Shown here: positions 1 through 10,383 of the stretch, piece by piece
Position numbering within the stretch: position 1 is the stretch's first letter
How the letters are laid out: the number at the start of each line of letters is the position of its first letter
Assembly (NCBI GenBank): GCA_051294375.1
Contig: JBJCIZ010000843.1
Span: 1-10,383, forward strand
DNA from: Paraspadella gotoi
Taxonomy: Eukaryota > Animalia > Chaetognatha
Direction: 5' to 3'
Length of the DNA stretch: 10,383 nucleotides
Translations under genes and position numbers: made by a program
The notes under the pieces: generated by a model
What the model was told of the DNA's origin: nothing
What the model saw: only the letters and a program-made list of their open reading frames with translations
The model's database searches: none

Positions 1-40
1 GCAAGAACACGAGGCTCAGTACCCCGGACCATAGTTGACA
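1..40 (+). repeat. 3' end (U5) of the 5' LTR
   Basis: GCAAGAACACGAGGCTCAGTACCCCGGACCATAGTTGACA is 40/40 identical to 9627-9666; the two copies diverge immediately after ...TTGACA, a canonical CA terminus. Confidence 0.95.
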
Positions 41-154
41 TTTAATACATTGGACAAAGGGAGGTGTTCTTGGAGACGAGGAGTTTGGTGCAAATCTATT
101 TGAACTACTTGGTGGCGAGTTAAAAGGTCAGTAAATCCCGCAGCACAAAGAACT

Positions 155-360
155 GGTACTCCACGAAGAGAGTGCCGAAGCAGAACGGACGCTAAGAAGT
201 TGCGTCGAAGATTTTTGTTTTTTTTGACGTCCAAGTCAAGGTGACACTCCACGAAGAGAGTGTTGAACGAGAGGGGAGGTGCCCGAAGCAGCACCTCTTC
301 CACAGAGAGAGCGCCCGAAGCAGCGCTCTCTCCAAAAAACATTGGGCGGAAGAGCCCGCC
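155..360 (+). promoter_or_regulatory. 5' leader array of six stem-loops with GAAG-containing loops (candidate packaging/dimerisation signal)
   Basis: Hairpins at 155-176, 188-206, 243-264, 273-300, 305-332 and 343-358; loops CACGAAGA x2, TAAGAAGTT, CCGAAGCA x2, GGAAGA. Structure read from the sequence; function inferred from position. Confidence 0.6.
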
Positions 361-630: not shown

Positions 631-3012
631 ATGTCTCGCACCGTTGCCCGTGAATCTGTAGGCATGGAGTTACTGTTAGGATATTTTGCTGATAGTGATA
701 ACCAAACACAGAGAGGGGTCAGGCATTACGTGGCCGAGTTGGCCCATGGCATCGACACGTTTAAGAAATTCGCAGGACTAGCCAGGTATGATCCAACGCC
801 GGACACAATCGCCGAGGCTTCACATCAGAGGAAATTACTGAAGAAGGTGACCCAGCAGCTTTACGACGTCATCGACGTGATCTCGGCTCTCGAGACGGAC
901 CGGGCGAGGACAGTTCTAGACGGAGCGAAGCGCGCCCTCAATGAGTTCTCCGCGCCGGGAGCCACGCCGTCAACTGCATCCGCTCCGTACAGGGTAGTTC
1001 CGCCAGTGCCCTTTGCCTCGCAGAGATGCTTCTCGGCTGGAGATGTCCGACCCGCAGGTGAGGAATATGGGAGGAACTGGCCGTCGCCACACAGTTCAGC
1101 ATGGGCCGCGCAGCCGGATCTCGGAATCCCCATCGCCTCGTCAAGCCGGACGGTGATCATTTCGGGGCCCTCCACGCCGCCGCCAAGGAGGGAGTCCGTG
1201 TCATCGCGCGGGTCGCGTGCATCACAGAGACGCCGCATAGTGGAGGCGTCGAAGGCGGCTGAAGAAAAGGGCAGGTTAGAGATAGAGAGGTTGAGGGTGG
1301 AATGGGCAAACAAGGAGAGGCAGATGAAGTTGGAGATGGAAGAAAGGGAGAAGCGACTGAGGCTGGAGATGGAGACTCAAGAAAAACAGTGGAGATTAGA
1401 AGTGGAGAACAAGGAAAAACAGTGGAGGTTGGAAATAGAGAATAAAGAGAGGCAACTAGAATTGAAACAGAAGGAGAGAGAGAACGAACTGAGACGTTTT
1501 GATGCCGAGGAAGAAGATGACCGGGAGCACGATTTTGATGGGCTGGAGACGGTGGTAGAGACGCCGCACGGAGCTCAGCTGCTGCCAACTCAACCGCCAG
1601 CCGTCCCGACGGAGCCACCGCCAAGAGCGCCGGCGCCGCCGCCAAGGGCGCCGACGCCGCCGCCAAGGGCGCCGACGCCGCCACCGACGAGGCAGCAGCA
1701 AACGCCGCGCCGCAGGTACCGAGTTGAGACGATAATGACTCCAGACGGAGACTTAGTAGATTTCCAAGTGCCGATCAACGACGATGAAGAAGTTCCAAAC
1801 TTGGCAAGGCCCGAAGCTGCGCGCGCTGCAGGCCCGCCCCCACCAAAGGTTAGACAAATATCCCCAATCAGGCTGGTCACGGAACGGGCCGAACCAACGA
1901 CGACGCCAAGCAGGAATGACCCGAGACCAATAACGCCACCCAGCGAACCCACGATAGAGACAAACCCCATGGCACAATTATGTCGCATCCAGCTGCAGCA
2001 TCAGGCGCTGACCCTACTGCAGCAAAAGAGACCCAAATCAAAGTTTATCTGTGATGGAAAGGTAGACTTCGAGACCCAATTGAACTTGTTTGAGTCGCTC
2101 GCCAACATAGACGGGGTGACTGAGGAGATGAGGTTTGGAGAGTTGAGAGAATACTTCAGTGGAGACGCCTTACACATCATCTCGCGCTTCGAGGCTTCAA
2201 AGGATTACGCCCAAGCGCTTACAAAGGTGATAAAAGCATTAAAATTTGAGTTTGGAAAAAAGGCCCACACGGCGAAGCACATGCTGAAGGAGTGGTTGAA
2301 GGGAGGTAAGGTCCGCGAAGCCGCCGGGGTGAAGACGGCGATACTGGAACTGGAGAAAATCTATGCATGGGCGCACGAGACGGGACGCGGATCCAGCTTC
2401 GGGGCACAAGATACATACAACGACATCTTTAACAAAAGACTGCCGCAATTCGGTGCGGCCTGGGCAAAAAGAATGGCCGACGACAGACTCGCGAGGTTGG
2501 CCGATGAGGACGATGATCTCTCCCAAGAGGTAGAGCCTGGATTTGATGAGTTCATTACTTTCCTGAAGAGACAATCCATGATACAAGAAAATAGAAATGT
2601 TATATTCGGCGCGACTACTGCAGCCACGACGACAACAACGACGGCGCCGAGAATGGTCGGCAGGACCTTTCACCGAGGATCCGCGTCGGCGAACGTGTCG
2701 GCCAGCATTGACACGATGGCATTCCCAAATCCCAATTCAAATCCAGCCACACATGCGCCGCGGCGAAATATGTCACTCAGCTGTGCTTTCTGCAGAGGAG
2801 GACACCACAACGGATCGTGCGACAGGTATTTGGGCCTGAAGAAAGAAGCTCGGAGAGCTCTGCTGGACGAAAAGGGACTGTGTCGACGATGCCTGGGACC
2901 AGGACACACTGCAGCCACATGCAACAAACTTCTCGGATGCCGCATCTGCTCAGGGCGACACCACTCATCGCTGCATGAGGACGACCAGACGAGGCCGTCC
3001 ACGACGTCCTGA
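631..3012 (+). CDS. gag: BEL/Pao Gag, 793 aa
   Basis: Long ORF after the leader: coiled-coil and Pro-rich N-half, capsid-like middle (LREYFSGDALHII...YAQALTKVIKALKFEFG) and three C-terminal Cys/His knuckles. Confidence 0.93.
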   Translation: MSRTVARESVGMELLLGYFADSDNQTQRGVRHYVAELAHGIDTFKKFAGLARYDPTPDTIAEASHQRKLLKKVTQQLYDVIDVISALETDRARTVLDGAKRALNEFSAPGATPSTASAPYRVVPPVPFASQRCFSAGDVRPAGEEYGRNWPSPHSSAWAAQPDLGIPIASSSRTVIISGPSTPPPRRESVSSRGSRASQRRRIVEASKAAEEKGRLEIERLRVEWANKERQMKLEMEEREKRLRLEMETQEKQWRLEVENKEKQWRLEIENKERQLELKQKERENELRRFDAEEEDDREHDFDGLETVVETPHGAQLLPTQPPAVPTEPPPRAPAPPPRAPTPPPRAPTPPPTRQQQTPRRRYRVETIMTPDGDLVDFQVPINDDEEVPNLARPEAARAAGPPPPKVRQISPIRLVTERAEPTTTPSRNDPRPITPPSEPTIETNPMAQLCRIQLQHQALTLLQQKRPKSKFICDGKVDFETQLNLFESLANIDGVTEEMRFGELREYFSGDALHIISRFEASKDYAQALTKVIKALKFEFGKKAHTAKHMLKEWLKGGKVREAAGVKTAILELEKIYAWAHETGRGSSFGAQDTYNDIFNKRLPQFGAAWAKRMADDRLARLADEDDDLSQEVEPGFDEFITFLKRQSMIQENRNVIFGATTAATTTTTTAPRMVGRTFHRGSASANVSASIDTMAFPNPNSNPATHAPRRNMSLSCAFCRGGHHNGSCDRYLGLKKEARRALLDEKGLCRRCLGPGHTAATCNKLLGCRICSGRHHSSLHEDDQTRPSTTS
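1315..1479 (+). repeat. Five 33-bp (11-aa) degenerate repeats in gag (coiled coil)
   Basis: ERQMKLEMEER / EKRLRLEMETQ / EKQWRLEVENK / EKQWRLEIENK / ERQLELKQKER. Confidence 0.8.
1615..1686 (+). repeat. 21-bp tandem repeat encoding (PPPRAP[A/T])x3-PPP in gag
   Basis: CCGCCGCCAAGGGCGCCGACG unit, about 3.4 copies. Confidence 0.9.
2782..2976 (+). other. Gag nucleocapsid: three zinc knuckles (Cx2Cx3Hx4C, Cx2Cx4Hx4C, Cx2Cx3Hx4H)
   Basis: CAFCRGGHHNGSC, CRRCLGPGHTAATC, CRICSGRHHSSLH; this triple arrangement is diagnostic of BEL/Pao. Confidence 0.93.
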
Positions 3013-3063
3013 CTTGCAGCAGCATACGCAGCAACCGGGGCACTCCGTCCAATTGTCCCAGTA

Positions 3064-6000
3064 ATGGTGAAAAATGGATCAAAAAAGATTGCTACGTATG
3101 CTTTATTGGACACAGGAGCCACACGGTCGGCGATAACATCGAAAATAGTAAGAAATCTAGAATTACAGCCCTATACACTATTCACCAACCTGACCACCTA
3201 TGATTCAATATCGAGAAACTGGAGAGATTATGTAGATGTAACTATATCGGCCCTTGATGGATCTAATTCAACAATTGCAAATAAGGTACTAGTCGGCGAC
3301 ATCCTAACTACTGAAAATGAAACGCCCTACCGAAATGACGACATACGAGACTACGAGTATATGAACGACATCGAACTAGACGAGTTAAGTAAAGACGCTA
3401 TCGAACTTATACTAGACGCGAGATTCGCTCCACTCTGGATTGGAGGAGAGACAAGAGTCGGAAATGCCAAGGAACCCATTGCATTAAAAACGGCGTTTGG
3501 ATGGACACTAATCGGCGTCTCATCAAAGCAAAACCCCGAGACTATAGGATGTTGTATTGATACAAATGAGTACGAAGAGTTAGAAAAATTAATTCAAACG
3601 ATGTTTAAACATGATTTCATCTTGAGAGGAGACGAAAGATATCCCTCAGAAGTGGTCCACCCATCGGCACAGGACCAATACGCGTTGGAGCAGTTGGAAG
3701 CCGGAATTCGGAAGAACCCAATCACCGGCCATTACATCGCCCCGTCACCCTGGAAAAGGGGAAGAGAAAAAACGGCTGAATATTTTAGAACAGTCCGCGA
3801 AGAATCGATCCAAAATGCGAAAAATAGAGCAAGAAAAACGGCATTTAAAATGAAGAGTGACCCGACATTGTTAGAGGGAGTCATGAAAACCATGGAAGAG
3901 ACAATTGAGATGGGCCACTCGAGAAGAGTGGTCGAAGACACATTAGATGAAAACCCCGAATTCTACACACCCTTGCACGTCGTCACGAGGCCGGACAAGC
4001 CCGGCAAATTTCGCATTTGTCAGGATTGCGCGTCGAAGGTGAGAGGCAGGTCGCTGAACGACGAATTGATCCCCGGACCAGACAACTTGACCCCGTTGAT
4101 TGGCATCCTATTCAAGTTCAGAAAAAAGAAAGTAACTTTAGCGGGCGACATAAAGTTATTCTTTCATCAAATCGAGTTGGACCCGAAGGATGTCGGAGCC
4201 TTCAGGTATTTTTTCTATAAAGACAAGACCCTCAAAACTCTGGAGAAACATGAGCCCCTCGTCCACGTATTTGGCGGAGCCGGCAGCCCAGGAGTCGCCA
4301 CCTTTGTACTACAGTACCACGGAAAAAGCATTCAAGACGAATTCCCAATAGAGGTAATAATTGCCCTATTCATCAAGTTTTATGTCGACGACTACTTGGA
4401 TTCACTTGATGACGTTGAAGAGGCGCGAAAGATGCGGAGAAATCTGACAGAGGCCTTGAGAAAAGGAGGATTTGAACTCGGTAAATGGCAATCCTCACAT
4501 CCCGCGGCTTTGGTGGATACAGATGATGAGACAGTCGAAACTACAGATGAGCCGAGTGACGAATTAACAGACGACTTGGAATCAGTCGCAGATAACGCGC
4601 TTCCGGAGGACCCGTCAGAAGGAGAACACGCCTCCAAAGTGTTGGGAGTCGGATACAACTTTAAAAGAGACGTATATTTTGTAAAAAAGTCAAAGAGAGC
4701 TGAAAACGAGGTAAACACAAAGAGAGACCTGTGGAGATTGGTCGCGTCCGTTTTTGACCCGCTAGGCCTCGTGTCGCCGTTCACACTAAGAGGACGCATC
4801 CTGGCGCAAAAGGCGGCGAATCTAAAATTAGATTGGGATACAAAATTACCCAAAGAACTACGAGACGAAACGAACGAATGGAGAAAGAGTCTACCCCACC
4901 TGAAGAGGATCCACTTGCCCAGATGGACGTCAGACGACGATATAAAGGTAAACAAAACCACTCTGATAGTGTTTTGTGACGCATCAATCGAAGGATACGG
5001 TGCCGTGGCGTACATAAAAAAGGAGGACACGAATTCTGGAAAAAACAAGATATCATATTTTTACTCCCGAGCCCATGTCGTACCCATGCAAATGCAAAGA
5101 ACAATTATACCCGGACAAATTGACCACGGCGACAGCATGCCGAGACTTGAGCTGAATGCGGCGCGACTCGCCGCCCAGATGAGAGACGTGATCGTAAGGG
5201 AAGGAGGCGAAACATTTGACGAAATAGTGATGCTTACAGACTCCGCGACTGTCCTAAAATGGATACAAAATTGGACAAAAAGGTTTCGCACATTCGAAAA
5301 CTTCAGGTTGAAGGCGATCAGAGCATTGACACAAATCTCAGACTGGGCTCACGTACCTGGAGAGGAAAATCCAGCCGACTTCACAAGTAGAGGATTAGCA
5401 GCAGATGAGCAAAAAAAGTGGAAAATATTCCATGAAGGTCCAAGCTGGTTGACGAAGTTGAAGGAAGAATGGCCGATCGAAAAGGACACTGAAAAAATAA
5501 GAAAAACAAAAAAGGAACCAGATACAAAATTAAACGAAATAGATGAGGACAGTGGTTACTCACCAATTGAATTAGTAGTGATTAACGCGACCCACGAATA
5601 CCCAAAAAACCCAAACACAGATGATGCAAACGTAACGTGGCCATTAAAAATCACGGAGAAGATTAGCGCATGGATGGGAAAAATCCGCCGAGTCGCTTAC
5701 TTCATGAAGGGAGTGAAAGGAATCGTTGAAATCCTAAAGGAGAAAAACAAGGTAAACAGGAAAATTAATGTAAACACGCTCGATGCGAAAACAGTAAAAC
5801 AAGCAAAAATAAATCTCATACGGGCTGTGCAAAGACAACATTTCGGGTCCGAGATGTTTGAACTAATAAAATTAGGAGTCAACTCACCAGACTCACATAA
5901 AGAACTCAGAAACAGATCCACAAAAATAACAGAACTGAACCCCTTTATCGACGAAGAAGGATGCCTGAGAACAGGAGGACGACTAAAAAACGCGCAAGAT

Positions 6001-7167
6001 TTAACATATGATGCAAGACATCCTTATATACTACCAAAAAATGACGAAATAGTCAACGCCATGATCAGAGACGAGCACGAATCATTACTACACGCAGGTA
6101 CAGGGACCACGTTCCACTTACTGAAACAAAAGTACACATTACTCGGGGGACGGTACCAAGTCGAAAATATAATAAGAAAATGTGTAACATGTCAACGCTT
6201 GTACAAAAGGCCCATGCCACAAAAAATGGCCAACCTACCGATCGAACGTACAAACATAACCATCCCATTTAAAGCAACAGGCCTGGACGTATTTGGCCCC
6301 TTTCAAGTAAAAATGGCCGGAAGAGGCCTGAATAAAAAGAATGTCATGTTACTCACATGCCTAGCAACACGAGCAATCACATTCGAAGTACTAAAAGACA
6401 TGTCTGCCATGTCAGTCTTAAATGCACTGATTAGATTTAAAAACTCATGTCCCGGGCTAGAAACGCTGATCTCAGACAACGGAACAAACTTCGTTGGCGC
6501 AGCCAACGAAATAAAGAGACAACTAAAAGCAATAAGCCAAGAAAAAAAGCTAAATGAGACGATAGCAAAAAAGGGAATTGAATGGAGATTCGGCCCACCA
6601 GACGCCCCACATTGGGGCGGTATTTGGGAAAGAATGGTAAAATCAGCAAAAAGACACATCAGCGCAGCCATGCCCCCACAGCCAGATTTAGACACATTCA
6701 CGACGATACTCAGCGAAATCTCAGGCATACTAAACCGTAGACCACTGACAGCCGCATCAACAAACCCAAACGAAGAAACCACGCTATCTCCAATAAACTT
6801 TATTTACCCGTATACACACTCGTCAACAGCACTTACCTTACTGCCCCACGCGCCATCCGAAGGAGACCAAATGAGAGCGACGTGGAGACAAGTCAGAGAG
6901 ACGGCAGACAGATTCTGGGAGCGATGGTCAGTCGAATATTTAACGACGTTACAAAAAAGAGAAAAATGGAACAAGACGAACGACGACTTGAAAGTTGGCC
7001 AACTCGTATTAATAGCAGAAAATAATCTTCCACGAGATGTTTGGCGCACCGGAGTAGTCATCGAGATCAAAGGAGAAGGAAATCACGCAAGAGAAGCTTT
7101 AATAAAACTCCCAAATGGCAAAATCAGTAGACGACACAAGATGTCACTTGTGCCGCTCGAAATATAA
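3064..7167 (+). CDS. pol: BEL/Pao Pol polyprotein (aspartic protease, RT, RNase H, integrase); frame is open from 3013, in frame with gag
   Basis: Protease LLDTGA (DTG 3109-3117); RT YVDD (4381-4392); RNase H FCDAS (D 4978), PRLEL, TDS, NPAD; integrase HHCC (H 6076, C 6181) and D-D-E at 6286/6475/6628. No stops or frameshifts. Confidence 0.96.
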   Translation: MVKNGSKKIATYALLDTGATRSAITSKIVRNLELQPYTLFTNLTTYDSISRNWRDYVDVTISALDGSNSTIANKVLVGDILTTENETPYRNDDIRDYEYMNDIELDELSKDAIELILDARFAPLWIGGETRVGNAKEPIALKTAFGWTLIGVSSKQNPETIGCCIDTNEYEELEKLIQTMFKHDFILRGDERYPSEVVHPSAQDQYALEQLEAGIRKNPITGHYIAPSPWKRGREKTAEYFRTVREESIQNAKNRARKTAFKMKSDPTLLEGVMKTMEETIEMGHSRRVVEDTLDENPEFYTPLHVVTRPDKPGKFRICQDCASKVRGRSLNDELIPGPDNLTPLIGILFKFRKKKVTLAGDIKLFFHQIELDPKDVGAFRYFFYKDKTLKTLEKHEPLVHVFGGAGSPGVATFVLQYHGKSIQDEFPIEVIIALFIKFYVDDYLDSLDDVEEARKMRRNLTEALRKGGFELGKWQSSHPAALVDTDDETVETTDEPSDELTDDLESVADNALPEDPSEGEHASKVLGVGYNFKRDVYFVKKSKRAENEVNTKRDLWRLVASVFDPLGLVSPFTLRGRILAQKAANLKLDWDTKLPKELRDETNEWRKSLPHLKRIHLPRWTSDDDIKVNKTTLIVFCDASIEGYGAVAYIKKEDTNSGKNKISYFYSRAHVVPMQMQRTIIPGQIDHGDSMPRLELNAARLAAQMRDVIVREGGETFDEIVMLTDSATVLKWIQNWTKRFRTFENFRLKAIRALTQISDWAHVPGEENPADFTSRGLAADEQKKWKIFHEGPSWLTKLKEEWPIEKDTEKIRKTKKEPDTKLNEIDEDSGYSPIELVVINATHEYPKNPNTDDANVTWPLKITEKISAWMGKIRRVAYFMKGVKGIVEILKEKNKVNRKINVNTLDAKTVKQAKINLIRAVQRQHFGSEMFELIKLGVNSPDSHKELRNRSTKITELNPFIDEEGCLRTGGRLKNAQDLTYDARHPYILPKNDEIVNAMIRDEHESLLHAGTGTTFHLLKQKYTLLGGRYQVENIIRKCVTCQRLYKRPMPQKMANLPIERTNITIPFKATGLDVFGPFQVKMAGRGLNKKNVMLLTCLATRAITFEVLKDMSAMSVLNALIRFKNSCPGLETLISDNGTNFVGAANEIKRQLKAISQEKKLNETIAKKGIEWRFGPPDAPHWGGIWERMVKSAKRHISAAMPPQPDLDTFTTILSEISGILNRRPLTAASTNPNEETTLSPINFIYPYTHSSTALTLLPHAPSEGDQMRATWRQVRETADRFWERWSVEYLTTLQKREKWNKTNDDLKVGQLVLIAENNLPRDVWRTGVVIEIKGEGNHAREALIKLPNGKISRRHKMSLVPLEI
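3955..4500 (+). other. Reverse transcriptase core (approximate bounds)
   Basis: FYTPLHVV, KFRICQDCAS, SLNDELIPGP, GDIKLFFHQI, VHVFGGAGSP, FYVDD, GGFELGKW. Confidence 0.88.
4963..5450 (+). other. RNase H domain, BEL/Pao type (approximate bounds)
   Basis: LIVFCDASIEGYGAVAY ... MPRLELNAA ... TDSATVLKWI ... WAHVPGEENPADFTSRG ... GPSWL. Confidence 0.88.
6076..7164 (+). other. Integrase (HHCC, DDE core with 50 residues between D2 and E, BEL-type C-terminal domain)
   Basis: HESLLH...CVTC; GLDVFGPF; SDNGTNFVGA; HWGGIWERMVKSAK; LNRRPL; FWERWSVEYL...GQLVLI...WRTGVV. Confidence 0.92.
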
Positions 7168-7310
7168 ACAAAGACACGCAATAGTGGCATACAGCGAATT
7201 CTAAAAATAAAACGAAGAGCTAAGCAAGCACGTAACCTAGAAACCGAGCAACAAAAGACGCGCGAGACCGAACATTGAAGCTATACCGCGTAAAAACCAT
7301 TCCACCAAAA

Positions 7311-7360
7311 ATTTATTTTTTTCATTTTTTTTAAAATTCATTCTTTTTGCTAAAAAGAAG
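7311..7360 (+). promoter_or_regulatory. T-rich tract plus AG: candidate 3' splice acceptor for a subgenomic ORF3 mRNA
   Basis: ATTTATTTTTTTCATTTTTTTTAAAATTCATTCTTTTTGCTAAAAAGAAG on an otherwise A-rich strand, ending about 25 nt before the ORF3 ATG. Function inferred. Confidence 0.4.
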
Positions 7361-7383
7361 TAAACTGCCCGGAACAAAACAAG

Positions 7384-8604
7384 ATGCAGAACGACGTAGA
7401 CGCAATCGACGTCATGATAAAAGAGGAAGAAGTAGTGGACCTTGAGTTCAGCCCGCCCGAAAGGTGGCCAAAGAAATTCACGGACTTATACTGGGAGCGA
7501 CTAAGAAGCGGAGAAGTCTCACCGACTGCAAGGAGGGCGCTAGAAGAAAAGAACATCCCAATCGTATTGAACACTCCTGATGAATGGGCGTTCAACAAAC
7601 GCTGGAACGAGATATCAGCGCTGCCGCAATTAATCGTCAACATACGAGAAGAATGGAGAAAGGTCGCGGCGTCACGCGGCTGGTCGGTAAGGAGATTCAC
7701 ACAGTATATCAAGAGGAACTTTCACGGGGAAAAATTAATGGAGAGAGAGGAAAGGGAGGAACAAAAAAAGAATACCCACACACAAAGAGAGGAACAAAAC
7801 AGAGAGACGGAAAGGACGAGAGTTGTAATAAACGAAGGAAGGGAAAAATGGAGAAGAGAGACGGAAAGGAACAACCTAGCTGAATCAGAACTAAAGGCAC
7901 AAAGAGAGATCTTAAAGTTAAGAAACGAGAAAGCCCAATTAAGCCACGAGCTAGAATGGCACAAAGCACGGATACAAGTCATAGAAAACGCGAGAGCCAA
8001 GGAAAAAAGGGAACTGGAAGAAAAATTAGACAGGAAAGTATGGGAGAACCTTGAAACAGAGCGCCGTTGGAGTAGAGTGGTAGAGCTCACACTCGGGAGT
8101 CGAGGACGGGAAATATGGAACGAGGAGCCAAGGACCTCAACATCAAGGTTATTTCAACAAATGACGTGCGGACACAGACAAGAGGAGGCAAAAACCTCGC
8201 TGTCACGGGCATATTTACATACGTGTGGACATAGCTGCGGGCGGGAGGAGGAAGTACTCACGACCTCACAGGCACTCCCGCCCGAACCTCAAAGAGATCC
8301 AAGAGGCACAATACATGAAGAGACGAACGAAAATGAAAAAATAAAAATAAAACTAGTGAAGGAGAACAACAGATGGGAAAGGTCGAGAGAAGCCGAGAAA
8401 GAAAAAGAGCATCAAAAACCAAATCGAGACCAAGGATGGGAGGTAATGAAGGTCGTGGAACCAAGCGTCAAAAAACGTGCAGCCCAAACACAAGGCAACG
8501 GACCGTCGACGTCAAAGAACACGAACCAAGATGAAAGAAAAAAGGAGAAGAGGAGAAAGAAAGAAAATGGCGAAAAAGAAATCACCGAAATCCACGCCAA
8601 GTGA
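7384..8604 (+). CDS. ORF3: 406-aa accessory protein of unknown function in the env position (not env-like)
   Basis: Uninterrupted sense ORF between pol and the 3' UTR, ATG in AAGATGC context. Trp-rich N-terminal ~115 aa, E/K/R coiled coil, two TCGH motifs, basic tail RKKEKRRKK; no hydrophobic signal or TM stretch. Confidence 0.8.
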   Translation: MQNDVDAIDVMIKEEEVVDLEFSPPERWPKKFTDLYWERLRSGEVSPTARRALEEKNIPIVLNTPDEWAFNKRWNEISALPQLIVNIREEWRKVAASRGWSVRRFTQYIKRNFHGEKLMEREEREEQKKNTHTQREEQNRETERTRVVINEGREKWRRETERNNLAESELKAQREILKLRNEKAQLSHELEWHKARIQVIENARAKEKRELEEKLDRKVWENLETERRWSRVVELTLGSRGREIWNEEPRTSTSRLFQQMTCGHRQEEAKTSLSRAYLHTCGHSCGREEEVLTTSQALPPEPQRDPRGTIHEETNENEKIKIKLVKENNRWERSREAEKEKEHQKPNRDQGWEVMKVVEPSVKKRAAQTQGNGPSTSKNTNQDERKKEKRRKKENGEKEITEIHAK

Positions 8605-8702
8605 AAACACACAAAACCCTACAAAAAATTATCAATAATTGTCACAAATTATGTTGGACGTATTGGATCCAAATTATCACTAAAGTTATGTTGGTTATAT
8701 TC

Positions 8703-8879
8703 TGATTATTATGACGAAATCCAATGTTGATGGATTGAAAAATAATTGATTATTATGACGAAATCCAATGTTGATGGATTGAAAAATATTTGATTATTAC
8801 AACAAAATCCAATGTTGATGGATTGAAAAATATTGTGATTATTACGACGAAATCCAAAGTTGATGGATTGAAAAATATA
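8703..8879 (+). repeat. 44/45-bp tandem repeat x4 in the 3' UTR, each with an AATCCA-N7-TGGATT inverted repeat
   Basis: Units start at 8703, 8747, 8791 and 8836: TGATTATTA(T/C)(G/A)AC(G/A)AAATCCAA(T/A)GTTGATGGATTGAAAAATA... Confidence 0.93.
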
Positions 8880-8961
8880 CCAATTGATGGGCAAAATATC
8901 TATCACAACGCCTTCGCCCCGAGCGAAACGGGGGGAGGGAAAGGAGAAGTTTCGACGGAGC

Positions 8962-9048
8962 GAAGGACCGGTGCCGGCCCTCGAAACGGTCGGCGCCGCA
9001 GCAGGAGTTGAAGGACCGGTGTCGACCCCCGAAACGGTCGGCGCCGCA
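8962..9048 (+). repeat. Two 39-bp direct repeats (48-bp period), each forming a 10-bp GC-rich hairpin
   Basis: 8962-9000 GAAGGACCGGTGCCGGCCCTCGAAACGGTCGGCGCCGCA; 9010-9048 GAAGGACCGGTGTCGACCCCCGAAACGGTCGGCGCCGCA. Confidence 0.9.
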
Positions 9049-9113
9049 AAAGAGTCGCAGTGGAGGCGCAACGAAGCCGCAGCAACGCCGAAGGACGAAG
9101 CAGCAGCGGTGGA

Positions 9114-9160
9114 GGAGCGACGACGAAGGAGCTACGACGAAGGAGCTACGACGAAGGAGC
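9114..9160 (+). repeat. 14-bp tandem repeat GGAGC(G/T)ACGACGAA, about 3.4 copies
   Basis: Directly visible; units start at 9114, 9128, 9142 and 9156 (partial). Confidence 0.88.
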
Positions 9161-9246
9161 GGGCGTGGCGACGACGAAGCAGCGGAGTTACGGGGGGAGA
9201 GGATGCCGGTCAGTGCCGCAACGATTGCCCGACAAGAAAAAATTTC

Positions 9247-9263
9247 GGGGAAATTGGGGGGAG
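9247..9263 (+). promoter_or_regulatory. Polypurine tract (GGGGAAATTGGGGGGAG) abutting the 3' LTR
   Basis: G6AG immediately followed by TGT, the typical BEL/Pao PPT/LTR junction. Confidence 0.72.
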
Positions 9264-9666
9264 TGTAAAGAGAGGCGGGCCAACTCAGCGGCACCGACGC
9301 GGCACGGGCGCGGCAATTCTTCTTTACGCGGCGCCGAGCAGCGACGGAGGCGGAAGAAAAGGCGCATACCGAGTTTGGGAGAGACGAAGAGACGGCGCCC
9401 TTTTTTGCTGAGGGAAATTTATTTAATATTTCTTTTTTGTCTAATAATTTTATATTGATACTTGGTCAAATACGGGGGAACCATAGATGTAAGATAATAT
9501 TTAAAATAAAGATAAAATAAGGGAAATATTTAATATTTGATATTCTTGAAATATAGGTATTAAACTTTGTTACAATACTCTGTGATATTAAACTGGTTGT
9601 TGTTACAACGGTTGCCGTGATTGCCAGCAAGAACACGAGGCTCAGTACCCCGGACCATAGTTGACA
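9264..9666 (+). repeat. 3' LTR (~403 bp), TGTAAA...TTGACA
   Basis: The 3' end is fixed by identity with 1-40. The 5' end is inferred from the PPT and the 5/6 terminal inverted repeat (TGTAAA vs TGTCAA) and cannot be confirmed inside the window. Confidence 0.78.
9505..9592 (+). promoter_or_regulatory. Candidate polyadenylation signals in the LTR (AATAAA 9505-9510; ATTAAA 9559-9564 and 9587-9592)
   Basis: Hexamers in the AT-rich LTR segment; the last is followed by GT-rich TGGTTGTTGTT. Confidence 0.4.
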
Positions 9667-10383
9667 AGAATCCGAGAAAGCTAAATCGATTAAGACCGAG
9701 TATAAAAATCCTTTTACAGCAAAATGCCGAAAGGTTATATACAATCGCCACTTACACGCATCATTGGAAATGCCGATGGAGAGTCACTGCATTCAAGCAA
9801 CATCGAAAGGCAGAAATACAGTGCCCACGAACCGGAATCCTTTAACGACAAAGAATCCCATTAGTAGAGCAAAGGGCGAAATGGAACCCCCATTGCGGAT
9901 AACACGCCGCGTGCTCGCTTCTCATCTACAGTGAAGGGAGCAACGCCGCACCGGGACGACACCAAGAAAAGCTAAGCCTAAACAGCAACAACTATACCAA
10001 GCAGTCGTTGGCGGAGCCCCCGCAAGCTGATGTACGACACGGAGCATCGATCAAACACGATACCAAGAAAATTTGTCGACGAATGGTGCATTAACAAAAA
10101 GAATATACACAGGCCCATCCCTACGCGTCTCCACAGGAAAATGGCGCCATCGCAATCCGAGAACGAATCGACTGAGAATGTTTCAAAAATTGGATTCTCC
10201 GATACAACCTTCTTCCCTGCATCCCCCCGATGAAGAAATCGAGACATAATCATCGCACATGCAACCACAGACCCAGATGGTAAGTGAGATGTGGATAATA
10301 ACGCGAGGCGAAAAACGAGGAACTGCAGTGGCGCATATGAAATGGAAAACCAATCACTCACCCTCGCTCAAGGATAAACAATC
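9667..10383. other. Flanking DNA outside the element, unassigned (AGAAT at 9667-9671 would be the 3' TSD copy if 5 bp)
   Basis: Lies beyond the LTR terminus; no recognisable protein in the frames examined. Confidence 0.55.

What the first reader, a model, noticed from the sequence alone, without database searches (positions are those of the whole stretch)
7384..8604. Non-env accessory ORF3 in a BEL/Pao element: soluble, coiled-coil, putatively nuclear protein
Seen: an intact 406-aa ORF in the env slot with no signal peptide, TM helix or Cys-rich ectodomain. It has a Trp-rich, probably folded N-domain (RWPKKFTDLYWERL...DEWAFNKRWNEI...EEWRKVAASRGWSVRRF), a long charged helix (aa ~120-230) and NLS-like KKR and RKKEKRRKK. 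Established: known third ORFs of BEL/Pao (roo, Tas, Cer7-type) are mostly envelope-like. Inference: an uncharacterised accessory factor such as a Rev/Rec-like RNA exporter, silencing suppressor or targeting factor. With the repeated hairpins in both UTRs it could form a protein/response-element pair, the best candidate for an undescribed system here.
Basis: partly seen in the sequence, partly recalled or inferred. Interest (0 to 1): 0.8.

Follow-up and report, generated by a model that had tools for sequence, protein, structure and literature searches.

The report
Orphan coiled-coil gene in marine retrotransposon
A BEL/Pao retrotransposon from an uncharted marine lineage carries, where an envelope gene usually sits, an intact gene for a soluble protein with no detectable relatives, predicted to pair up through a coiled coil and likely to bind the element's own DNA or RNA to regulate it.

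Summary
The ORF (7384-8604, 406 aa) is real: no shuffle gives it, its codon choice matches pol, and it is identical in 4 of 4 runs laid. It is not env and not a gag piece, and no search found a true homologue. It is predicted to be a parallel coiled-coil homodimer (aa 158-237), with a helical N-domain holding a helix-turn-helix-like motif (unproven) and a basic tail. The element belongs to an unnamed marine BEL/Pao clade. All 3 clade members with enough DNA after pol carry a long, mutually unalignable ORF there; the closest relative's is under purifying selection (dN/dS 0.13). Six RNA hairpins sharing a CGAA loop lie in both UTRs, and four spaced palindromes follow the stop. No call links either to ORF3, and the leader hairpins fit a packaging signal equally well. 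One probable RNA run covers ORF3 unspliced, but the strand is unknown and the same run holds spliced antisense RNA over pol. Best reading: a dimeric nucleic-acid-binding self-regulator (0.35); Rev-like export is unlikely. Non-env ORF3s are known from rotifer gypsy-type elements, and this scan noted one such orphan in a Gypsy element on other DNA.

The parts
7384..8604 (+). ORF3, 406-aa soluble orphan protein
   Evidence: identical in contigs of 4 of 4 runs laid (table 8)
7459..7737 (+). Trp-rich, basic (net +7) helical N-domain, aa 26-118; fold not identified
7654..7722 (+). helix-turn-helix-like motif, aa 91-113 (unproven)
   Evidence: only PDB sequence hit at E<=10 is the second HTH of GadX, E 0.84; helices either side of the turn in the model; no HTH fold stands out
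7855..8094 (+). predicted parallel homodimeric coiled coil, aa 158-237
   Evidence: score 0.44, best control 0.00; heptad a/d core at 176-200
8536..8562 (+). basic cluster RKKEKRRKK, candidate NLS
7312..7357 (+). U-rich tract and weak AAG acceptor before ORF3; read on the minus strand the same tract holds an AATAAA (7317-7312)
   Evidence: X9 contig starts at 7308 and runs through it unbroken
8697..8878 (.). four 44-nt repeats, each with the spaced palindrome AATCCA-N7-TGGATT (8718, 8762, 8806, 8851): candidate DNA sites
   Evidence: weak as RNA fold
154..332 (+). four leader hairpins with 8-nt CGAA loops (loop word at 164, 252, 284, 316)
8969..9046 (+). two 3'UTR hairpins with 8-nt CGAA loops (8982, 9030)
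631..3012 (+). gag, ending in three Cys/His knuckles; stop TGA in frame with pol
3013..7167 (+). pol (PR-RT-RH-IN), BEL/Pao type; first ATG 3064
   Evidence: PF05380 E 6e-33, PF18701 E 3e-21, PF17921 E 2e-8
9264..9666 (+). 3' LTR (TG...CA, 403 bp) after a polypurine tract; window 1-40 is the end of the 5' LTR
   Evidence: contigs join 9626 to 1 in three runs
3750..5563 (-). antisense RNA over pol with six GT-AG introns (3750-3970, 4108-4405, 4822-4899, 5036-5110, 5254-5356, 5489-5563)
   Evidence: joints in run X9 only, not in DNA runs X4, X5, X7

Best explanation
ORF3 is an intact, lineage-specific accessory gene of this BEL/Pao element, whose soluble product is predicted to dimerise through a coiled coil and likely binds the element's own nucleic acid in the nucleus to regulate it. 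Shown: intact ORF, coding-like codon use, no envelope features, no homologue, membership of a clade whose post-pol slot holds other long non-env genes. Predicted: parallel coiled-coil dimer (aa 158-237) carrying two basic helical N-domains. Inferred: a separate subgenomic RNA (internal start near 7308, or splicing from a leader donor at 127 or 363 to the weak acceptor at 7357); nuclear import by the basic cluster; binding through the HTH-like motif to repeated sites, first candidate the four spaced palindromes 114 nt behind its own stop, second the paired CGAA hairpins; a role as transactivator or anti-silencing factor of the element.
For: ORF not by chance and codon use like pol. Invariant in 4 of 4 runs. 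Homodimer model 0.44 against best control 0.00, runs agree in at least 90% of contacts, pLDDT at least 62; that mark was reached by 21 of 30 solved homodimers and 0 of 23 monomers (eukaryotes 17 of 29 and 0 of 30). N-domain basic, pI 10.3. The one PDB sequence hit falls on the HTH-like motif and is an HTH protein. Basic cluster rare in shuffles. Four spaced palindromes suit a dimer. The same slot in the closest relative, L001, is under purifying selection (dN/dS 0.134 over 227 codons, dS 0.73; shifted frames 1.8 and 2.7). An unspliced contig of the probable RNA run X9 covers 7308-8732.
Against: The HTH hit is not significant (E 0.84), Pfam has no HTH match at E<=10, and fold searches of the low-confidence model show nothing above background (best Z 5.0). 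The dN/dS result is for a different, unalignable protein. On eukaryotic homodimers without an older solved relative the complex tool passed only 1 of 7, and long helices may pair from memory. The X9 contig has no strand, ends 4 nt past a minus-strand AATAAA, and the same run holds spliced antisense RNA over pol, so it may be antisense. No splice joint to ORF3 was seen. The palindrome repeats have no stem changes and may be plain tandem duplications. No binding was tested.
Confidence: 0.35

Rival explanations
1. ORF3 is an RNA or particle cofactor: the dimer binds the paired CGAA hairpins or Gag and helps package, traffic or import the genomic RNP.
For: Six hairpins with one loop word occur only in the two UTRs, as three pairs, 5 of 6 with G-U pairs on the + strand. 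The array is not seen in seven clade loci (several lack their UTRs), so it may be family-specific like ORF3.
Against: The four leader hairpins lie between a donor-like site (127) and gag, the usual place of a packaging signal read by Gag NC (recalled for retroviruses), so Gag explains them without ORF3. No RNA-binding motif was identified.
Confidence: 0.2
2. ORF3 acts by protein contact on host silencing or chromatin machinery (decoy or adaptor) and binds no element sequence.
For: Rapid turnover of the slot (3 unalignable proteins in 3 clade members) fits an arms race. Antisense RNA over pol suggests host silencing pressure. Another BEL group in the same scan carries an ORF3 family whose best PDB hit is the nuclease EXD2 (E 0.067).
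Against: No similarity to any host protein; a basic N-domain and HTH-like motif point to nucleic acid.
Confidence: 0.2
3. ORF3 is a Rev/Rec-like exporter of unspliced RNA acting on the hairpins as a response element.
For: Basic cluster, oligomerising helix, structured repeats; the leader hairpins would be intronic if the donor at 127 is used.
Against: 406 aa, far above the size recalled for Rev, Rec and Rex; the basic cluster is Lys-rich and terminal; two hairpins lie in the 3'UTR shared with any ORF3 RNA; no sense splice joint seen.
Confidence: 0.07
4. The ORF is a recently opened or captured frame without function, carried by a young family, and the RNA over it is antisense.
For: No homologue; no variation to test selection; T-poor DNA (12% T) favours long frames; strand of RNA unknown.
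Against: 0 of 5000 in 7 composition-matched nulls; codon use like pol; the slot is filled and selected in relatives.
Confidence: 0.1
5. ORF3 is a degenerate env or a duplicated gag fragment.
For: Position after pol; class I fusion proteins and this Gag both hold coiled coils.
Against: No hydrophobic segment, sequon or furin site; best match to its own Gag E 0.79; no viral fold at E<=0.001.
Confidence: 0.03

Closest known systems
Family-specific non-env ORF3s of bdelloid LTR retrotransposons (DEDDy, GDSL, CC and TM types; PMC5408684, sections 3.3, 3.5 and Discussion read)
   Same: Third ORF after pol, non-env, varies between families, a coiled-coil type exists, treated as a separate transcription unit.
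   Different: [quoted passage not shown] No enzyme domain here; a basic helical N-domain and NLS-like tail instead. The paper found no significant departure from neutrality within the genome; here the relative L001 gives dN/dS 0.13.
Belpaoviridae env-like third gene (ICTV profile PMC8742986, whole text read)
   Same: Element structure, pol domain order and slot.
   Different: The profile lists only gag, pol and env; this product has no envelope feature.
Foamy virus Tas and plant Mutator VANC proteins (recalled, no call)
   Same: Works-like models: an element-encoded protein that binds sites in its own DNA to activate or desilence it; Tas is made from an internal promoter.
   Different: No sequence or fold similarity found; binding and promoter untested.
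Retroviral Rev/Rec/Rex with their response elements (recalled, no call)
   Same: Basic cluster, oligomerisation, structured RNA in the element.
   Different: Size, type and place of the basic motif, and hairpins not confined to unspliced RNA.

Membership tests
BEL/Pao (Belpaoviridae) element | pol with Pao-type RT/RH and IN in the order PR-RT-RH-IN | tested here: met
   all listed homologues carry PF05380
BEL/Pao (Belpaoviridae) element | LTRs of 0.2-1.2 kb and a polypurine tract | tested here: met
   403-bp LTR with TG...CA ends
BEL/Pao (Belpaoviridae) element | primer-binding site for tRNA-Arg or -Gly right after the 5' LTR | tested here: inconclusive
   by eye the first TGG lies 10 nt after the LTR end; host tRNAs not available
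env-like ORF3 | signal peptide and transmembrane anchor | tested here: not met
   max hydropathy 0.36
env-like ORF3 | Cys-rich glycosylated ectodomain, furin site | tested here: not met
   3 Cys, no sequon, no RX[KR]R
DEDDy or GDSL ORF3 | nuclease or esterase domain with catalytic motifs | tested here: not met
   no Pfam hit; models all helical
CC-type non-env ORF3 | soluble ORF after pol with a coiled coil | tested here: met
   (prediction); homology to the rotifer CC ORFs not tested
CC-type non-env ORF3 | own (usually spliced) sense mRNA | tested here: inconclusive
   unspliced, unstranded contig 7308-8732; no joint
HTH DNA-binding protein | HTH fold in the N-domain | tested here: inconclusive
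   motif and GadX hit E 0.84; Pfam none; fold searches at background
HTH DNA-binding protein | sequence-specific DNA binding | not testable with these tools
   needs gel shift or ChIP
Rev/Rec/Rex | small protein with an Arg-rich RNA-binding motif (recalled) | tested here: not met
   406 aa; basic cluster 5 Lys, 3 Arg at the C-end
Rev/Rec/Rex | Leu-rich export signal and CRM1-dependent RNA export | not testable with these tools
   no NES predictor run; needs cells

The most novel reading that the evidence does not exclude
An uncharted marine BEL/Pao clade has a complex-retrovirus design: a swappable accessory gene after pol, here a dimeric HTH-coiled-coil protein that reads repeated sites in its own genome (four palindromes or three pairs of CGAA hairpins), opposed by a multiply spliced antisense RNA, a self-regulating circuit not described for an invertebrate retrotransposon in the papers searched.
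Probability: 0.15. Interest if true: 0.85.

Novelty: new variant of a known kind. Interest (0 to 1): 0.5.

Why it matters
The ICTV profile gives BEL/Pao elements gag, pol and at most an env-like gene. Here one deep plankton clade fills that slot with different soluble proteins, at least one under strong selection, and a second BEL group carries a nuclease-like ORF3 family. That makes non-env accessory genes a recurring feature of BEL/Pao, not a rotifer gypsy oddity. This element offers a compact test case: one candidate regulator, two short candidate target arrays and an antisense RNA, all with coordinates.

Tried and rejected
No host genome is held, so copy number, flanks and sister subfamilies were not examined. 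Homologue searches for ORF3: 0 of 7325 candidates at E<=0.01, lengths 223-711 only; aa 1-139 against 1.84 billion representatives gave 1 hit, rejected as eight summed weak matches (25.8 bits each) to a repeat protein; aa 140-406 was not searched at other lengths; Atlas blank twice; exact sequence not on record; IMG/VR none for pol or ORF3; 80 fetched loci none by tblastn; Pfam none for the whole protein, 3 sub-threshold hits on the coil; Foldseek PDB and viral none at E<=0.001; VIA-align best Z 5.0. These blanks do not show a new fold. No run is on record as RNA; X9 is a guess, supported by its six GT-AG joints. Contig depth (63.6 over ORF3, 4.9 just upstream) is only a weak hint and is not used to rank genes. 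An antisense intron across 7237-7305 was considered and rejected: contig ends do not fit and no joint is listed. Splice-site scoring could not settle the strand, since the minus strand of ORF3 has no donor scoring 3 or more. The HTH pattern matched 0 of 100000 shuffles but was written after seeing the sequence, so it is not counted. The bacterial promoter scan is irrelevant to a eukaryote. Rfam: no match. L001's C-terminal ORF3 part found only 2 close relatives. Paper searches showed no listing for a non-env coiled-coil or HTH ORF3 in BEL/Pao; the library lacks most subscription papers, and no supplements were read.

Full report
Setting. The window holds one BEL/Pao element: the last 40 nt of the 5' LTR, a leader, gag (631-3012), pol (to 7167; PF05380 E 6e-33), ORF3, a 3'UTR with repeats, a polypurine tract and a 403-bp 3' LTR (9264-9666). 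Contigs of three runs join 9626 to 1, which confirms LTR followed by leader. No host genome is held. Nine runs of one organism in three studies hold the stretch; some may be the window's source.

The ORF. 7384-8604 is 406 aa. The DNA is T-poor, so I tested chance: 0 of 5000 sequences reached 406 open codons in each of 7 nulls. Its codon preference equals pol's (0.106 and 0.107; other + frames 0.03). It has no hydrophobic segment, sequon or furin site and 3 Cys, and does not match its own Gag (E 0.79). The contigs that cover it in 4 of 4 runs laid differ from the window only outside the ORF (table 8). The family looks young, and dN/dS cannot be measured on it.

No homologue. Every sequence, profile, language-model and fold search was blank or artefactual. 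The nearest pol is only 46% identical, so a fast-evolving ORF3 could be beyond reach.

Anatomy. AlphaFold2 from the single sequence gives a low-confidence bundle of short helices (aa 30-112) and one long helix to 237. A two-copy model gives a parallel coiled coil over aa 158-237: score 0.44, best of 3 controls 0.00, runs agreeing in at least 90% of contacts, pLDDT at least 62. The mark was reached by 21 of 30 solved homodimers and 0 of 23 monomers; for eukaryotes 17 of 29 and 0 of 30, but only 1 of 7 without an older relative. This supports a dimer and does not show it. The N-domain is basic (pI 10.3). Residues 91-113 read like a helix-turn-helix, and the only PDB sequence hit at E<=10 aligns them to the second HTH of the AraC-family regulator GadX, at E 0.84. 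Pfam and fold searches do not confirm it. The tail looks disordered by composition and ends in a cluster of 8 K/R in 9, rare in shuffles.

The clade. The top 53 pol hits (P0003-P0055, 36-46% identity) are unnamed metagenome proteins. Those included group with the window apart from all named-host sequences: FastTree support 1.0 (182 rows) and SH-aLRT 100 in a quick IQ-TREE run on 34 chosen rows; the careful search did not finish. L007 joins the clade in the integrase tree. Tara plankton data are known to hold five deep environmental BEL clades (PMC5029228, passages); I did not test which one this is. Of 25 sequences with 2 kb or more after pol, 3 are of this clade (window, L001, L007) and all 3 have a long sense ORF there (406, 509 plus predicted upstream exons, and 747 codons). 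They do not align (best E 0.083). L007's frame has a hydrophobic stretch (1.95) in its first 100 codons, in U-rich sequence that may be untranslated. L001's gene has two predicted GT-AG introns that keep the frame, and the locus holds two diverged copies of its 3' part with dN/dS 0.134 (227 codons, dS 0.73; shifted frames 1.8 and 2.7). So the slot holds a selected gene in the nearest relative; selection on this ORF is inferred, not measured. L001, L002, L003 and L007 have a pyrimidine-rich CAG acceptor 45-163 nt after pol; the window has the U-tract but only a weak AAG. Of the 22 outside loci, 8 have an ORF over 300 codons: 4 form one ORF3 family (below), 2 look like a following gag, 2 were not examined.

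RNA. Run X9 is labelled RNA only by guess, but it alone shows six joints whose skipped parts are GT-AG introns on the minus strand of pol; three DNA runs lack them. In X9 one contig covers 7308-8732 without a gap or loose end and another 8805-9382. Their depths (63.6, 71.8) exceed the contig just upstream (4.9), a weak hint of a separate RNA. It may be a sense RNA from an internal start near 7308 to the LTR poly(A) signal at 9505, or an antisense RNA from the LTR ending after the minus-strand AATAAA at 7317-7312. Contigs cannot tell. No leader-to-ORF3 joint is listed. Expression of ORF3 is therefore plausible but not shown.

Repeated sites. Six hairpins with an 8-nt loop containing CGAA occur in the element, four in the leader and two in the 3'UTR, none elsewhere on either strand. 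They form three pairs with different stems, and 5 of 6 have G-U pairs on the + strand, which points to RNA. Shuffles reach the count in 0 of 1000 (leader) and 3 of 1000 (3'UTR). The word was picked after looking, but among all 256 four-mers it ranks first with 6; the next three are overlapping words. Seven clade loci show no such array, though several lack their UTRs. The leader set lies after a donor-like site at 127 and before gag, where a packaging signal is expected (recalled). The four 44-nt repeats fold weakly (z -1.6) but each holds a 6+6 palindrome with a 7-nt spacer, the usual shape of a dimer's DNA site. No call links ORF3 to either set.

Mechanism. A basic helical domain on each arm of a coiled-coil dimer, with a basic tail, is the build of a nucleic-acid-binding regulator. 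I commit to a self-regulator (transactivator or anti-silencer) that likely binds the palindromes or LTR, at 0.35. An RNA or particle cofactor and a host-protein antagonist each get 0.2, a functionless frame 0.1, Rev-like export 0.07, env or gag remnant 0.03. That ORF3 is a functional gene at all I put near 0.85.

Known comparison. PMC5408684 (passages and sections 3.3, 3.5, Discussion) describes family-specific ORF3s of types env, DEDDy, GDSL, CC and TM in rotifer LTR elements, so the kind is known. PMC8742986 (whole text) lists only gag, pol and env for Belpaoviridae; PMC3118150 (passages) says few BEL/Pao elements have env. Spliced antisense TE transcripts are reported in Drosophila (10.1101/2023.05.27.542554, passages). 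PMC6431247 (passages) added nothing on BEL. Tas, VANC, Rev and an exonuclease ORF in C. elegans Cer elements are recalled, not checked. Ten paper searches listed no BEL/Pao ORF3 of this type. Verdict: new variant of a known kind; interest 0.5.

Noticed in passing
window 3750-5563, minus strand: Six GT-AG introns in an antisense RNA over pol in run X9. If all are used on one molecule (not shown), a stop-free stretch of 285 codons results; 9 of 5000 random splicings reached that, but the unspliced frame already has 222. The splice dinucleotides are mostly not kept in relatives (2 of 11 aligned sites in L001, 3 of 12 in L003). Likely cryptic splicing of a silencing RNA; an antisense protein is not excluded.
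   Followed up: partly
window 3010-3015; L001 4743, L002 498, L003 1043, L004 321, L006 1988: gag and pol are in one frame, split by TGA followed by CT in 6 of 6 clade loci examined: a conserved, likely stop-codon readthrough signal.
   Followed up: partly
L051:6580-9660, L054:6649-9780, L055:7316-9811, L071:6590-8908: A second BEL group carries a conserved non-env ORF3 family (773-1044 aa): an N-domain whose best PDB hit is the 3'-5' exonuclease EXD2 (E 0.067) and a Cys/His-rich domain. No Pfam hit of note. Possibly a BEL counterpart of the rotifer DEDDy ORF3.
   Followed up: partly
L001:9293-11537 and 3-872: Predicted two-intron, Pro/Ala-rich ORF3 with a short coiled coil, Cys/His motif and acidic tail; a second copy about 80% identical lies upstream of the element, suggesting tandem elements.
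   Followed up: partly
L007:2564-4804: 747-codon low-complexity ORF right after pol with basic clusters and a C-terminal charged helix; no Pfam hit.
   Followed up: no
window 41-130: No primer-binding site directly after the LTR end; the first TGG is 10 nt in.
   Followed up: no
window 8887-9411: 174-codon GC-rich + frame through the 3'UTR hairpins into the LTR; no Pfam hit; run contigs show small insertions within it, so probably not a gene.
   Followed up: partly
window 9667-10383: The flank is itself a higher-depth, more variable repeat in the DNA runs, with no long ORF and no match in the fetched loci.
   Followed up: partly
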